A program made the translations under genes and the position numbers. A stretch of 64,000 bases of DNA from Octopus vulgaris. Taxonomy: Eukaryota. The notes under the pieces were generated by a model. It did not search any database and was not told the origin of the DNA. It saw only the letters and a program-made list of their open reading frames with translations. The DNA lies in NCBI GenBank assembly GCA_951406725.2, contig OX597819.1, positions 92,318,001 to 92,382,000 on the forward strand, given 5' to 3'. The number at the start of each line of letters is the position of its first letter. The stretch's first letter is position 1. Below are positions 5,806 to 50,678 of this stretch, in pieces.

Positions 5806-6430
5806 ACAAGAAAATATAGTGGCAGCAAAAACGAAACAATCTCACATATTGAGTGAGTGCCTGATACCAAAAACATGCAATGAAAACGAAATAATATTAC
5901 AAGTAACTGCAGAATATGTGGAGATGGACAAGAAACAATAAATCATATTATCTCTAGCTGCCCAGTCTTGGCTAAGAAGGAATATATTCACAGACATGAC
6001 ATAGTTAGAACCTACATACATTGGAAGCTATGCCAACATTATGGAATAACAACAGAAAAAAGATGGTATAGGCACACACCAGAAAAGGTCACAGAAAACG
6101 AGAAAGCAACCATACTCTGGGATATGCCGATACACACAGATAGAGAAATTAAGGCCAACAGACCAGATATAGTAGTAGATGAAAAAAAAAACCAATATTA
6201 TAGATATTGCAATCACTGGGAATACACTAGAAAACATGGAAAAACACTACTAAAAGACAAAATTGCAAGGACGTAGGCTATGAAGAGAGTGTTTGTCATC
6301 CCAGTAGTTGTAAGGGCATTTGGAGCACTAGCAACTAATCTTGAGAAATATTTCAGAGAAATACTGGGCTTCAAACACATATATTTTACCTAGCAGTGTC
6401 AATTTGATAGCATGCACTGCTCCCGCACTC
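5806..6430 (+). mobile_element. R4/Dong-like non-LTR retrotransposon 3' fragment (CCHC + RLE endonuclease)
   Basis: CRIC...HIISSCPVLAKKEYIHRHD...IHWKLC...WY.H.PE...ILWDMPIHTD..IKANRPDIVV, VIPVVV.AFGA; flanked by (TAA)n. Confidence 0.85.
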
Positions 6431-18314: not shown

Positions 18315-19587
18315 CTGGGTCATCCCATAAATAATGCGGTTCTTTTATACTCCTTTTATTTTTCAAAATTAAGATAAACAAAGTTGTTTTTTAATCTAAA
18401 ATGTACTCTTCTTCATTTTCTACATTGCTCTTTCATCAGTCTTGTAGACTTGCAAGGTGCCTCTTCCAAAATGCACTTGTTCGTCACGAAAAATACTGTT
18501 TTCTTGTAGTGTTCTGACGTCGTCTACAAAATTCATACTTTTACAGTCCAAATGATTTTGAAGAAGACAGAATAATTGATAACCAGATGGGGCAACTTTC
18601 AGTGAATATGGTGGGTGGGGTATCATTTCCCATTCGAATTGCTCCAACCTTTGGAATGTCATCCTCGCTGTATGTTGTCGAGCATTATCCTGATAGAAGA
18701 ACACCTTTCGTCTTGAAACCAAAGATGCTACCTTTTCTTCTGGCGCTGACGCAAGTCGCTCAAACCGCTCGCAGAAGATCTCCTTTCTTATTGTTGGGTT
18801 TAGGGTTCAAAAGTTCAAAGTAGACTAAGCCTTTCATATCCCACCAAATGATAACAATACTTTACGTGTGTGAAGATATTTAGCCTGGGGGGGCCGGTTT
18901 GTCTCCTTTCCTTACCTACTGTTTTGGGCGTTTGAAATTTTTGTAGAAAACCCATTTCTCGACATCAGTCACTATTCGGTCCAAAAAAGTTCATTCGGGA
19001 GACGTGACAGCAAAGAAGAGCACACATTCACTCTCTGCGCGCAAAGTTTGTGACGAACCCATTGACTCAATTTGGTGATTTATCCGATAGCGCGCAGGTG
19101 TCGATGAATGGTTGAATGACCAAATCCAAACTCCTCTACTAGTTCCTTAACAGTTACGATGGGATTTTGCTCGTCCAGGGTTTGCAGGACACGCTCGTCG
19201 AGCTAGATCTTCCAGGATGAGGCTTGTCTACTAGAATGTAGTTTCCGGCTCGGAATTTCTGGAACCACCGTTGATACTGGCTTACGTTTATTATCCGATA
19301 CTCATATACTGCATTAATATTCCTAGCACTTTCCGCTGTGTTGTTGCCTTTATTGAACTTATAAAGCAAAATATGCCGAATATGATCCTTTATCACTTCC
19401 GTTATAGCTTTGAAAAAATAACCGTTAAAATCGAGCTGCACATTTCAAAACTTGCACTAAGAAGTACAAGGTAAAATTACTACCTGCTTTTATAGCAATT
19501 TGATGCAGGTAGTTTATCCTGCGCCCCCTCTGACTTCAAGTTCATGCAATTGAAAAAAGAACCCGCATTATTTCTGGGTTGATCCAG
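18315..19587 (-). mobile_element. mariner (DD34D-type) transposon, full length, decayed
   Basis: TIRs CTGGGTCATCCCATAAATAATGCGG / CCGCATTATTTCTGGGTTGATCCAG; HIRHILLY.F.KG...RWFQKFRAG, IVTD.EKW, QDNAR.H, HPPYS..VAPS.Y. Confidence 0.93.
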
Positions 19588-34456: not shown

Positions 34457-34482
<26 letters not shown>

Positions 34483-34495
<13 letters not shown>

Positions 34496-37400
34496 TAAGG
34501 GTAGAAATTGATATTTATCAATTAAGACCAGTGGTCTAGCATATTAAAAAAAGAATCCGAAGATTAAAATATTTATATATACCAATTAAGGACTGAACAC
34601 GAAAAGTGGACAGTCAACATGCTAGATATAGACGTCAAATCGTCATTCTCCACAAAAGATTATGTTCTCAGATCAAACTCAACACAAAACCATAGCAATA
34701 AACAAGTGAAAAATATACGAAATAAAATAATTACCCATGTACTAACTTAGTTTCAGCTGTTATTTTCCGCAAGGAAAACTGCAGCCATCATCAGCATGGT
34801 CCGTTATAAATGTAATTTGCTGGACTAGATGCAAACACGATACCGAAATATCGCGTGCATGGAGTTCAGCCTATTACATTTGAATATATCTTTCAAATGC
34901 CTTTACCTTGGCGCGTTGAAACCTGAGAAAACTAGCCTGCAGCTAATAATTAGCAGCAGTTAATTTATCGGTTAGAGAACATATTTATTTATATAAAATT
35001 AATTAAGGGTAGAAATTGATATTTATCAATTAAGACCAGTGGTCTAGCATATTAAAAAAAGAATCCGAAGATTAAAATATTTATATATACCAATTAAGGA
35101 CTGAACACGAAAAGTGGACAGTCAACATGCTAGATATAGACGTCAAATCGTCATTCTCCACAAAAGATTATGTTCTCAGATCAAACTCAACACAAAACCA
35201 TAGCAATAAACAAGTGAAAAATATACGAAATAAAATAATTACCCATGTACTAACTTAGTTTCAGCTGTTATTTTCCGCAAGGAAAACTGCAGCCATCATC
35301 AGCATGGTCCGTTATAAATGTAATTTGCTGGACTAGATGCAAACACGATACCGAAATATCGCGTGCATGGAGTTCAGCCTATTACATTTGAATATATCTT
35401 TCAAATGCCTTTACCTTGGCGCGTTGAAACCCGAGAAAACTAGCCTGCAGCTAATAATTAGCAGCAGTTAATTTATCGGTTAGAGAACATATTTATTTAT
35501 ATAAAATTAATTAAGGGTAGAAATTGATATTTATCAATTAAGACCAGTGGTCTAGCATATTAAAAAAAGAATCCGAAGATTAAAATATTTATATATACCA
35601 ATTAAGGACTGAACATGAAAAGTGGACAGTCAACATGCTAGATATAGACGTCAAATCGTCATTCTCCACAAAAGATTATGTTCTCAGATCAAACTCAACA
35701 CAAAACCATAGCAATAAACAAGTGAAAAATATACGAAATAAAATAATTACCCATGTACTAACTTAGTTTCAGCTGTTATTTTCCGCAAGGAAAACTGCAG
35801 CCATCATCAGCATGGTCCGTTATAAATGTAATTTGCTGGACTAGATGCAAACACGATACCGAAATATCGCGTGCATGGAGTTCAGCCTATTACATTTGAA
35901 TATATCTTTCAAATGCCTTTACCTTGGCGCGTTGAAACCCGAGAAAACTAGCCTGCAGCTAATAATTAGCAGCAGTTAATTTATCGGTTAGAGAACATAT
36001 TTATTTATATAAAATTAATTAAGGGTAGAAATTGATATTTATCAATTAAGACCAGTGGTCTAGCATATTAAAAAAAGAATCCGAAGATTAAAATATTTAT
36101 ATATACCAATTAAGGACTGAACACGAAAAGTGGACAGTCAACATGCTAGATATAGACGTCAAATCGTCATTCTCCACAAAAGATTATGTTCTCAGATCAA
36201 ACTCAACACAAAACCATAGCAATAAACAAGTGAAAAATATACGAAATAAAATAATTACCCATGTACTAACTTAGTTTCAGCTGTTATTTTCCGCAAGGAA
36301 AACTGCAGCCATCATCAGCATGGTCCGTTATAAATGTAATTTGCTGGACTAGATGCAAACACGATACCGAAATATCGCGTGCATGGAGTTCAGCCTATTA
36401 CATTTGAATATATCTTTCAAATGCCTTTACCTTGGCGCGTTGAAACCCGAGAAAACTAGCCTGCAGCTAATAATTAGCAGCAGTTAATTTATCGGTTAGA
36501 GAACATATTTATTTATATAAAATTAATTAAGGGTAGAAATTGATATTTATCAATTAAGACCAGTGGTCTAGCATATTAAAAAAAGAATCCGAAGATTAAA
36601 ATATTTATATATACCAATTAAGGACTGAACATGAAAAGTGGACAGTCAACATGCTAGATATAGACGTCAAATCGTCATTCTCCACAAAAGATTATGTTCT
36701 CAGATCAAACTCAACACAAAACCATAGCAATAAACAAGTGAAAAATATACGAAATAAAATAATTACCCATGTACTAACTTAGTTTCAGCTGTTATTTTCC
36801 GCAAGGAAAACTGCAGCCATCATCAGCATGGTCCGTTATAAATGTAATTTGCTGGACTAGATGCAAACACGATACCGAAATATCGCGTGCATGGAGTTCA
36901 GCCTATTACATTTGAATATATCTTTCAAATGCCTTTACCTTGGCGCGTTGAAACCCGAGAAAACTAGCCTGCAGCTAATAATTAGCAGCAGTTAATTTAT
37001 CGGTTAGAGAACATATTTATTTATATAAAATTAATTAAGGGTAGAAATTGATATTTATCAATTAAGACCAGTGGTCTAGCATATTAAAAAAAGAATCCGA
37101 AGATTAAAATATTTATATATACCAATTAAGGACTGAACACGAAAAGTGGACAGTCAACATGCTAGATATAGACGTCAAATCGTCATTCTCCACAAAAGAT
37201 TATGTTCTCAGATCAAACTCAACACAAAACCATAGCAATAAACAAGTGAAAAATATACGAAATAAAATAATTACCCATGTACTAACTTAGTTTCAGCTGT
37301 TATTTTCCGCAAGGAAAACTGCAGCCATCATCAGCATGGTCCGTTATAAATGTAATTTGCTGGACTAGATGCAAACACGATACCGAAATATCGCGTGCAT

Positions 37401-38070
37401 GGAGTTCAGCCTATTACATTTGAATATATCTTTCAAATGCCTTTACCTTGGCGCGTTGAAACCCGAGAAAACTAGCCTGCAGCTAATAATTAGCAGCAGT
37501 TAATTTATCGGTTAGAGAACATATTTATTTATATAAAATTAATTAAGGGTAGAAATTGATATTTATCAATTAAGACCAGTGGTCTAGCATATTAAAAAAA
37601 GAATCCGAAGATTAAAATATTTATATATACCAATTAAGGACTGAACATGAAAAGTGGACAGTCAACATGCTAGATATAGACGTCAAATCGTCATTCTCCA
37701 CAAAAGATTATGTTCTCAGATCAAACTCAACACAAAACCATAGCAATAAACAAGTGAAAAATATACGAAATAAAATAATTACCCATGTACTAACTTAGTT
37801 TCAGCTGTTATTTTCCACAAGGAAAACTGCAGCCATCATCAGCATGGTCCGTTATAAATGTAATTTGCTGGACTAGATGCAAACACGATACCGAAATATC
37901 GCGTGCATGGAGTTCAGCCTATTACATTTGAATATATCTTTCAAATGCCTTTACCTTGGCGCGTTGAAACCCGAGAAAACTAGCCTGCAGCTAATAATTA
38001 GCAGCAGTTAATTTATCGGTTAGAGAACATATTTATTTATATAAAATTAATTAAGGGTAGAAATTGATAT
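34483..38070 (-). repeat. Tandem array, 7 x 508 bp plus ~30 bp, hammerhead-bearing (non-LTR retrozyme-like)
   Basis: TTAATTAAGGGTAG recurs at 34491, 34999, 35507, 36015, 36523, 37031, 37539 and 38047; copies differ at only about 3 positions; bounded by (TA)n. Confidence 0.97.
34735..34799 (-). ncRNA. Type I hammerhead ribozyme (also at +508n: 35243, 35751, 36259, 36767, 37275, 37783)
   Basis: Minus strand: CCATG-CTGATGA-T-GGCTG-cag-TTTTCC-ttgc-GGAAAA-taa-CAGCT-GAAA-CTAA-g-TTAG-TA-CATGG; intact core, stems I/II/III, GUA cleavage between 34740 and 34739. Confidence 0.88.
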
Positions 38071-38073
38071 TGA

Positions 38074-38228
38074 TATTTTATTTCGTATATTTTTCACTTG
38101 TTTATTGCTATGGTTTTGTGTTGAGTTTGATCTGAGAACATAATCTTTTGTGGAGAATGACGATTTGACGTCTATATCTAGCATGTTGACTGTCCACTTT
38201 TCGTGTTCAGTCCTTAATTGGTATATAT
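38074..38228 (+). repeat. Inverted partial copy of the 508-bp unit
   Basis: Reverse complement of about 34575-34729. Confidence 0.95.
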
Positions 38229-38249
38229 ATATATATATATATATGGAAT

Positions 38250-38445
38250 TTACAAAAAAAAAAAAACAAAGACGAAGACGGGTGTGTAAACAACAGACAG
38301 ATGTATTAGTTTAACGCTCGCGAAGTGGGAAAGTCTTTTATGTTACGTGCCTACGCTCTTCAACAGAAAGGAACTCAGAAATAAGCAGAGGGAAAGAAAA
38401 TAAGAAAGGTTTAGTGGCTAGCGAACAATCATGGCGAATCATGAT
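38250..38445 (-). mobile_element. Short repeat family with minimal hammerhead-like motif (degenerate copy)
   Basis: Reverse complement CTTTCTGTTGAAGAGCGTAGGCACGTAACATAAAAGACT...AAACTAATAC, homologous to 43290-43500 and 48560-48825. Confidence 0.65.
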
Positions 38446-49294: not shown

Positions 49295-49459
49295 GCAACT
49301 AGGAGTACCCTGTTTCGTGAGGATTACCAGTTGCAGAACTGTGTTGCCATTATTTGAACTGTCTTCCTTCGTCCTTTTCTCTGTTCTGTCTTTCTGTTCT
49401 GTCATTGTGTTTTTTTCTTATTGGACTTTGAACTTTTAGTTGAACTTTTTTTCAAAATC

Positions 49460-50678
49460 ATGGCAACAAAAGAAACCACTGCTTTGGAATGGGAGGTTGT
49501 CCCACCCAAGCAGTGGATTGAAAGTCTTGAGAAGAGGACGGTGGTCCTACGAACCTATTCTAGGTCGCGTGGAGCTATCGCCCTCTTCGACAGGAGCACC
49601 ATAGAGAAAGAGTTGGGGGACCACCTACCAACGATAAAGTTTATTTCTCGGGGGAGTAAATTTGCAACGGTGTGGTTGCTGTTTGGTACCCCCGAGGAAG
49701 CTAGCAGATTTGCTAGCGATCCACTGGAGGGAGAGGAAATTTTGTTCCTCCCCTCGTATTGTGGCAGAAAAGTAAAAAGAGCCTGGGTTTGTGGGCTGCC
49801 CCCGGTCACGGAGGCGGAATGGATCGAGAAGACGATCCGGCGAGGCCTGGGGGATAGCGGACCCAGGCTACTGAGTGTGAAAATGGCTCCCGCGGTCGCC
49901 TGGGAGGGGTCAAAGGCAACTTTGACCCTGTGGACACCGGTGGCCGTGGGAGAAATGAAATTCCAGGACTTCCTGAGAATGGCTGGGCACAGGTACCCGG
50001 TGATACTCGAGGGACGCCCCCCAAGTGTCACCTGTGCCTGAAGCCCGGACATATCAAGAGGAATTGTCCCGGGGGCCGTGGTGGTGCCCCGGAGCATGAA
50101 GGGGAAAAGGCGCCCGCCGCCCCCTCATTGGAGGGGGAGACGGTGGAAGTCGTGGAGGAGGTTGCCTCCACGAAAAGAAAGAGACAGGCGAGCAACAATG
50201 GCTGCTCGCCAAAGAACGCTCAGGTGGCGGAGGGGGATAGCGATCCCCCGTGTCTGGTGACGGAGTCCCCTGGGTCAGCAGTCTCCCCCAAAAGAAGGAG
50301 GAGAAAAAGAAAGAAAGGTCGGGCGGCTGATATTCATGAGCCGCAGACGTTGGCGGCGGGAACTGTGCCGCCAACGAAAGAACTGAACGTATTGGTCCTC
50401 TTCTATAGAGGAGGAGAAATTGAAAAAAAATGATGGAAGAGTACCACAAGGGAGCTCCTTTAGCCTTCACACAGGACCCCGAATGGCCTCCGTAGATAGC
50501 TGTGGAGGCCGTGGCGTTCGACGTGACGCTTGGGCTAAAGGAGCTCAATGAAGATTATAGCTTGGTCCCGGGCGACGCGAACTCGGAACTTGATTACGTT
50601 CTGAGGGAGGCGTGTTTGATGGTGGAGGGCGCGGGCACAAGCTATTTCGAGGACGATATGTATTTATTGAACTGTTAG
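49460..50678 (+). pseudogene. Gag-like/ORF1 nucleic-acid-binding protein with CCHC zinc knuckle, disrupted
   Basis: ATG 49460 MATKETTALEW...VILEGRPP/KCHLCLKPGHIKRNCP (CX2CX4HX4C); frameshifts in poly-C (~50017-50022) and poly-A (~50423-50430), one in-frame TAG (~50493); basic KRRRRKRKK tract; ends at TAG 50678. Confidence 0.8.

What the first reader, a model, noticed from the sequence alone, without database searches (positions are those of the whole stretch)
34483..38070. 7 x 508-bp tandem array of a hammerhead-ribozyme unit: retrozyme / circular-RNA replicon-like system
Seen: each non-coding 508-bp unit has on the minus strand an intact type I hammerhead: CUGAUGA core plus an extra U, 5-bp stem I, extended stem II with an internal loop and UUUUCC/GGAAAA hairpin, GAAA, stem III ACUAA-g-UUAGU, and a GUA site. 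Copies are nearly identical, and the one variant inside the ribozyme (copy 7) falls in a loop. The array sits in (TA)n. Known: non-LTR retrozymes are tandem hammerhead-bearing repeats whose transcripts self-cleave to monomers that circularise and are thought to be mobilised by Penelope-like RTs. Inference: a very recent insertion of a cephalopod retrozyme giving 508-nt linear or circular RNAs, larger than the few-hundred-nt units I know of in animals.
Basis: partly seen in the sequence, partly recalled or inferred. Interest (0 to 1): 0.9.

Follow-up and report, generated by a model that had tools for sequence, protein, structure and literature searches.

The report
Two-armed ribozyme retroelement in TA repeats
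The array is one of hundreds of recent copies of a protein-free, ribozyme-bearing mobile repeat whose insertions nearly always have two opposed arms starting at two fixed points, which likely records a borrowed Penelope-type enzyme copying one RNA, possibly a circle, from both sides of the cut DNA.

Summary
Observation confirmed: 7.07 × 508-bp units, each with an intact minus-strand type I hammerhead; no Rfam model recognises it.

It belongs to a young dispersed family (635 exact ribozyme-pattern matches). Of 61 two-armed insertions, 57 have one arm starting at site A and one at site B, 94 nt apart; none is B+B. Both arms share the same haplotype. In 9 of 52, neither arm contains the other, which excludes fold-back copying there. 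The cut site is crossed without an indel in 141 of 141 unit copies.

Best reading: a non-LTR retrozyme inserted by a Penelope-like RT primed from both target strands, probably on a circular RNA. Cleavage, circles and expression are untested; no homologous autonomous partner was found.

Retrozymes, Penelope tails and inverted ends are published, and 508 bp is within the published size range. The one-site-per-end rule and shared template were not in the papers I read. The scan earlier noted a similar TA-targeted repeat in another genome.

The parts
34459..34487 (.). Left (TA)n target tract; last 6 bases also match the unit just outside start site A
34488..38071 (-). Arm A: 7.07 head-to-tail 508-bp units beginning at start site A; ribozyme RNA strand is minus
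34488..34581 (-). 94-nt tail between start site A (34488) and start site B (34582); repeated in every unit
34535..34626 (-). Predicted long stem (34535-34542 pairing with 34619-34626) enclosing site B; similar fold with different sequence in sister families; candidate RT-recognition module (inferred)
   Evidence: (z -4.1)
34735..34799 (-). Type I hammerhead, copy 1; predicted cut between 34740 and 34739
35243..35307 (-). Hammerhead, copy 2
35751..35815 (-). Hammerhead, copy 3
36259..36323 (-). Hammerhead, copy 4
36767..36831 (-). Hammerhead, copy 5
37275..37339 (-). Hammerhead, copy 6
37783..37847 (-). Hammerhead, copy 7, with one change in the stem II loop (37817)
34740..35247 (-). Predicted 508-nt monomer RNA between two cuts; strongly self-paired, ends held together by stem I
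   Evidence: (-143.6 kcal/mol, z -6.6, 0 of 100 shuffles)
38072..38073 (.). Inversion junction between the two arms (about 2 extra bases)
38074..38221 (+).
38222..38244 (.). Right (TA)n target tract

Best explanation
This is a protein-free tandem repeat with a hammerhead in every unit and two opposed arms set in a TA tract, likely inserted by a borrowed Penelope-like reverse transcriptase that would prime on both cut DNA strands and copy one RNA, probably a circle. Steps: (1) read-through transcripts of arrays would self-cleave through paired (dimeric) hammerheads to a 508-nt monomer that is ligated to a circle (inferred from anatomy and published retrozymes; untested). (2) A Penelope-like RT/GIY-YIG enzyme would bind the structured module around the tail and cut (TA)n on both strands (target and end pattern shown; enzyme inferred and not identified). 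(3) One DNA end primes at site A and the other at site B, 94 nt upstream on the RNA (end pattern shown; priming inferred). (4) Each polymerase runs an independent distance, often more than one unit and straight through the cut site (shown). (5) The two cDNAs are joined head to head, often at short microhomologies or internal hairpins (junction pattern shown). (6) Later local duplication lengthens some arms and probably made this one 7 units long (inferred).
For: A+B rule: 30 of 33 two-armed loci in set 1 and 27 of 28 in a held-out set; 1 A+A, 0 B+B, 3 A+other. Same rule in 6 of 6 autonomous PLE insertions with both ends in view. Arms share a template haplotype: 14 of 736 informative mismatches (1.9%) against 10.5% permuted, minimum 7.1% in 5000; held-out set 0.9% vs 2.2% and 1.1% vs 4.0% within subfamilies, 0 of 5000 permutations as low. 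Five locus-private variants in 4 loci sit in every unit of both arms. Neither arm contains the other in 9 of 52 simple loci, 4 of them with both arms under one unit; arm lengths are uncorrelated (rho 0.12). Junction overlap of 4 or more bases in 13 of 52 against 2.3% for random ends (BLAST overlap is a generous measure). 141 unit copies span the cut site with no indel at 252-263. Ribozyme helices covary (4 pairs changed on both sides, 97% of cells paired). Stem III is self-complementary or nearly so in all 7 variants tested. At least three young RT+GIY-YIG families with intact 775-781 aa frames are present. A purified Penelope-type enzyme extends both strands and starts at two sites that define the tail (PMC11167929).
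Against: No sequence-related autonomous partner was found: the three intact families have their own 31-38 nt tails and no DNA similarity to the unit in the two families compared directly, and an older family tested as parent has a different 3' end. Inner arm ends clustered next to the cut site in set 1 (7 of 71) but not in the held-out set (0 of 69), so ends give no sign of in vivo cleavage. A homogeneous uncleaved multimer would also give seamless crossings and shared haplotypes; in vitro, unprocessed RNA was the main PAc substrate (PMC11167929). In 3 loci (L052, L060, L066) a variant is in the arm-A units but not in arm B, which fits two sibling RNAs or later duplication. 43 of 52 loci are nested and 9 of 52 have mirror junctions (2.1 expected), so fold-back may contribute. 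18 of 79 loci show one arm only by BLAST. Eight of nine predicted Xenopus retrozymes failed to cleave in vitro (preprint).
Confidence: 0.62

Rival explanations
1. Same double priming, but the template is an uncleaved linear read-through multimer; arrays are kept long by local duplication and the hammerhead is not needed for insertion.
For: PAc hammerhead mutants insert normally in vitro (PMC11167929). No replicated end cluster at the cut site. Nine private variants are shared by a subset of units, 8 within one arm, showing local duplication. The lone ribozyme is predicted to fold poorly.
Against: Linear copying can only shorten arrays (median held-out arms about 1 and 0.7 units), yet several haplotypes each have their own 4-5 unit uniform arrays, which needs a single-unit bottleneck. 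103 private variants are single-unit, so most units predate their mutations. Ribozyme pairing is conserved with compensation; none of 20 multi-locus variants lies in it (about p 0.05 by my arithmetic, weak).
Confidence: 0.22
2. The inverted arm is made by fold-back or self-priming of one cDNA and trimmed by the endonuclease at the internal TA run of the other site.
For: Self-priming was proposed for head-to-head Penelope repeats with junction palindromes (PMC3846280, passages), and the tail was attributed to endonuclease resolution (PMC8557442, passages). It explains shared haplotypes directly. 9 of 52 mirror junctions; 43 of 52 loci nested.
Against: In 9 of 52 loci neither arm can be copied from the other, 4 with both arms below one unit (L219, L226, L227, L237). 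B is longer than A in 17 of 52. Mirror junctions fall on palindromes or hairpins of the unit where inspected, which is where two separate cDNAs could anneal.
Confidence: 0.08
3. The two arms come from two sibling RNA molecules of the same donor locus held in one particle, for example paired through the palindromic stem III.
For: Stem III self-duplexes of -6.7 to -13.6 kcal/mol. Three loci with an arm-A-only shared variant. Dimer predicted for the PAc protein (PMC11167929).
Against: Three loci end both arms at the same point in the same register (L038, L213, L214). No locus combines clearly different haplotypes apart from the poorly matching L031 arm. It does not by itself explain why one end is always A and the other B.
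Confidence: 0.15
4. The family is real but the 7-copy length at this locus is an assembly artefact or a recent local expansion unrelated to retrotransposition.
For: Period-two pattern at unit position 118 in copies 2-7. It is the longest arm among 79 loci. No contig in four laid runs spans the laid stretch.
Against: Other loci hold arms of 5.0-6.6 units. Both ends obey the family rule. The unit is held by 20 runs of 8 studies.
Confidence: 0.15

Closest known systems
Non-LTR retrozymes of animals (PMC7229834; bioRxiv 10.64898/2026.07.22.740005)
   Same: ORF-less, low-GC tandem repeats with a type I hammerhead in each unit, dispersed, self-paired monomer with the ribozyme free to fold; unit length within the 51-972 bp range.
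   Different: The word 'inverted' does not occur in PMC7229834; here nearly every insertion is two-armed with fixed ends in (TA)n. Stem II is long (12 pairs with an internal loop). No Rfam match. Expression and cleavage not shown here.
EN+ Penelope-like elements, Neptune-type insertions (PMC8557442, PMC3846280)
   Same: Partial tandems, an inverted truncated copy, a tail at one end only, microsatellite targeting, hammerhead with an extra base between positions 9 and 10.1 and a palindromic helix III (PMC4209133, passages).
   Different: No ORF. Tail is 94 nt, against 30-40 in print and 31-38 in this genome's autonomous families. No sequence similarity found to those families.
PAc (Poseidon of Anolis) in vitro mechanism (PMC11167929)
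   Same: Two internal RT start sites defining the tail; both target strands cut and extended; AT-rich target.
   Different: PAc showed no difference in start site between strands and no homology to the target. Here the two ends of one insertion use different sites, and each site has 6-8 nt of TA that matches the target.
L1 twin priming (recalled, no call)
   Same: Two primers from one target break, an inversion, microhomology at the junction.
   Different: In L1 the two pieces are consecutive parts of one linear RNA; here both arms re-copy the same unit and their ends are unrelated.

Membership tests
Non-LTR retrozyme | Tandem repeats with a type I hammerhead in at least two consecutive units | tested here: met
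   7 of 7 units
Non-LTR retrozyme | No protein coding; GC below 50% | tested here: met
   GC 33%, no long frame. LTR/PBS/PPT features were not searched for explicitly.
Non-LTR retrozyme | Dispersed multi-copy family | tested here: met
   178 matches at 38 scored of 1668 candidates; 635 ribozyme-pattern matches including sister families
Non-LTR retrozyme | Monomer predicted to be highly self-paired | tested here: met
   z -6.6, 0 of 100 shuffles
Non-LTR retrozyme | Self-cleavage of the transcript | not testable with these tools
   Needs an in vitro assay; only folding and covariation available
Non-LTR retrozyme | Expressed as unit-length linear and circular RNA | not testable with these tools
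   Only assembled contigs of runs of uncertain type were available
Type I hammerhead ribozyme | Conserved core, three helices, NUH cut site | tested here: met
   Core invariant in 10 of 10 aligned variants, helices 95-100% paired
Type I hammerhead ribozyme | Match to an Rfam hammerhead model | tested here: not met
   No match; likely the long stem II, not tested
PLE-mobilised element | Tandem plus inverted truncated copy, tail at one end, microsatellite target | tested here: met
PLE-mobilised element | Homology to the pLTR of an autonomous PLE | tested here: inconclusive
   None found among four PLE families examined; other families not reached, one search failed twice
Autonomous PLE | RT + GIY-YIG ORF in the element | tested here: not met
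   No ORF in the unit; PLE protein hits in the 177 loci scanned were fragments outside the arms where checked
Viroid-like RNA replicon | RNA-to-RNA replication, ribozymes in both polarities | tested here: not met
   Hammerhead on one strand only; other ribozyme classes gave no Rfam match; replication itself not testable

The most novel reading that the evidence does not exclude
The genome records rolling-circle reverse transcription of a ribozyme-made circular RNA by a dimeric Penelope-like enzyme whose two active sites start 94 nt apart on the same circle, one per target strand. A whole clan of ORF-less retrozyme families shares this long-tail recognition module and is moved by an enzyme whose own element does not carry it, or has not yet been found.
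Probability: 0.4. Interest if true: 0.78.

Novelty: new member of a known kind. Interest (0 to 1): 0.55.

Why it matters
How Penelope-like elements make tandem and inverted insertions is named as an open problem (PMC8557442, passage). That retrozyme circles are RT templates is a hypothesis (PMC4209133, PMC7229834). This family gives hundreds of young insertions of a 508-nt unit whose two ends, haplotypes and junctions can be read directly. They argue against fold-back as the only route and for one start site per target strand on a shared template. With at least three intact young RT families in the same genome, the model can be tested in the published in vitro system. The element itself is an ordinary retrozyme.

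Tried and rejected
Rfam: two E-value scans gave no hammerhead match, only microsatellite-driven miRNA hits.

End cluster at the cut site: 7 of 71 inner ends at unit 245-257 in set 1 (p 0.002 for that window, 0.08 as a scan), but 0 of 69 in the held-out set; dropped.

Expression: no RNA holder listed. Four runs were laid as contigs, three of them only guessed to be RNA. One contig of X16 stops at 34739, the predicted cut, but other contigs bridge the site in copy 2 and contigs cannot show ends; not used as evidence. No inserted base at the cut site was listed.

Autonomous partner: the 781-aa family and one 775-aa family show no DNA similarity to the unit; both 775-aa families have unrelated 3' ends by inspection. 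A degraded PLE abutting a sister-family arm (L284) belongs to an older family with a different 3' end; only 1 of 24 other copies had a clan fragment nearby. One further family search failed twice. Pfam PF26215 is not in the library. No tree was built, so 'Neptune-type' rests on the CX4CxxC linker alone.

Phage collection: no match. Earlier findings by sequence: none.

Literature searches showed no paper on cephalopod hammerheads or on the one-site-per-end rule. PMC13282606 has 0 occurrences of hammerhead, retrozyme or ribozyme in its main text. Subscription papers and all supplements, including that paper's repeat library, were not seen and may hold this family.

Full report
Observation. The window holds 7.07 units of 508 bp at 34482-38071 with three variable columns. 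Rfam does not recognise it. The whole insertion is TA, arm A, junction, arm B, TA.

Ribozyme. A pattern from the ribozyme's ends matches 635 places in the genome, control 0; the count includes sister families. In 10 hand-picked variants the core is invariant, 97% of helix cells pair and 4 of 21 pairs change on both sides. These sequences are related, so the shuffle control overstates this. Stem III is self-complementary or nearly so in 7 of 7 variants with different sequences, does not fold alone, and forms self-duplexes. This is the published signature of dimer-acting hammerheads, as is the extra base after position 9 (PMC4209133, passages). The predicted monomer folds far better than shuffles (z -6.6) with stem I holding its ends together. 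Cleavage is untested.

Family. The unit matched 178 places at 38 scored loci of 1668 candidates, nearly all at 98-100% identity. Set 1 is those 38 loci including the window; it is biased to long, close copies. Set 2 is 41 further loci from the first 100 of 635 pattern matches (contigs C1-C2), leaving out set 1 loci and the F2 family; it is biased to copies with an intact ribozyme. The unit is held by 20 runs of 8 studies and four organism labels.

End rule. Outer ends fall at two points of the unit, A and B, 94 nt apart, each beside a short internal TA run. Two-armed loci are A+B in 30 of 33 and 27 of 28. One is A+A, none B+B, three A+other. Eighteen of 79 loci look single-armed by BLAST; at least three of these (L036, L218, L225) carry a 6-10 base remnant of the other site. 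In both arms the strand growing out of the target is antisense to the ribozyme RNA, as expected if each target end primed reverse transcription. Autonomous PLEs of this genome follow the same rule in 6 of 6 insertions with both ends in view, with 31-38 nt tails.

Template. The two arms of a locus match each other better than arms of other loci: 1.9% against 10.5% (33 loci), and in set 2 0.9% against 2.2% and 1.1% against 4.0% within subfamilies (25 of 28 loci with enough overlap). The own arm was the nearest in only 11 of those 25, so this shows a shared lineage, not always a unique molecule. Five private variants in four loci occupy every unit of both arms; 103 are single-unit; 9 are in a subset, 8 of them in one arm (L031 left out as poorly matching). 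Fold-back copying needs one arm to lie within the other. That fails in 9 of 52 simple A+B loci, 4 with both arms under one unit. Junctions often have short overlaps, and 9 of 52 are mirror junctions. No indel occurs at the cut site in 141 spanning copies, which argues against template jumps between cleaved monomers and fits a covalent circle or an uncleaved multimer. An apparent cluster of ends beside the cut site did not replicate.

Clan and enzyme. Sister ORF-less families share the layout, among them F2 with a 591-bp unit and two more with hammerhead-like motifs. A long stem enclosing site B is predicted in 6 of 7 families folded, with different sequences (judged by eye, one further query returned empty). 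I infer it is the enzyme's recognition element. The genome has at least three young RT+GIY-YIG families with intact frames and a CX4CxxC linker, the motif tied to Neptune and microsatellite targeting (PMC8557442, passages). None is related in sequence to the unit, and an older candidate parent failed. The enzyme is therefore inferred by insertion signature only.

Mechanism. Shown: target, two fixed ends, one of each per insertion, shared haplotype, independent arm lengths, seamless passage through the cut site. Inferred: dimer cleavage, ligation to a circle, double priming by a Penelope-like enzyme, microhomology joining, later duplication. My odds: PLE-mobilised retrozyme 0.9, two independent primings 0.8, circular template 0.55.

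Comparison. Retrozymes and their proposed circular intermediates are published (PMC7229834, parts 2-4 of 6 plus passages). Their derivation from pLTRs and the 51-972 bp size range are in a 2026 preprint (parts 1-3 of 5). Tandem/inverted structure with a tail at one end is a PLE hallmark (PMC8557442, passages). Two start sites and extension of both strands were shown for PAc (PMC11167929, parts 1-2 of 4). Self-priming was proposed for the inversion (PMC3846280, passages). In those texts and searches I did not find the one-site-per-end rule, the shared-template test, inverted arms in retrozymes, or a 94-nt tail. Supplements were not read.

Verdict. New member of a known kind, with a mechanistic by-product worth testing. 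Interest 0.55.

Noticed in passing
L120, L115, L104-L143 (family F2): Sister retrozyme family with a 591-bp unit, the same stem I and GUA site, a palindromic GC-rich stem III, and sites A and B about 97 nt apart; 1838 first-look candidates.
   Followed up: partly
L071:430-1000; L284:1666-2160; L121; L156; L100:7650-7880: Further TA-inserted families sharing the long-tail layout; two carry hammerhead-like motifs. None was linked to an ORF.
   Followed up: partly
L088:3245-5587, L186:2137-4461, L238: Three very young PLE families with intact 781, 775 and 775 aa RT+GIY-YIG frames, each preceded in several copies by a second open frame of 450-480 aa (781-aa and first 775-aa families); the one scanned had no Pfam match.
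   Followed up: partly
L076:208-454; L097:1633: Another hammerhead family with a very long stem II, in inverted arrangement at L076.
   Followed up: no
L284:1666-3600: A sister-family arm directly abuts a degraded PLE frame; the PLE family's own 3' end is different, so probably a chance neighbour in a TA hot spot.
   Followed up: yes
window 38245-38400: The right flank is itself a repeat seen beside TA tracts at several other loci (L073, L075, L109), so TA tracts collect stacked insertions.
   Followed up: no
window 5884-6276, 18420-18806, 49358-50433: Open frames that look like an RT-element fragment, a mariner-like transposase fragment and a zinc-knuckle ORF1 (by eye, not searched).
   Followed up: no
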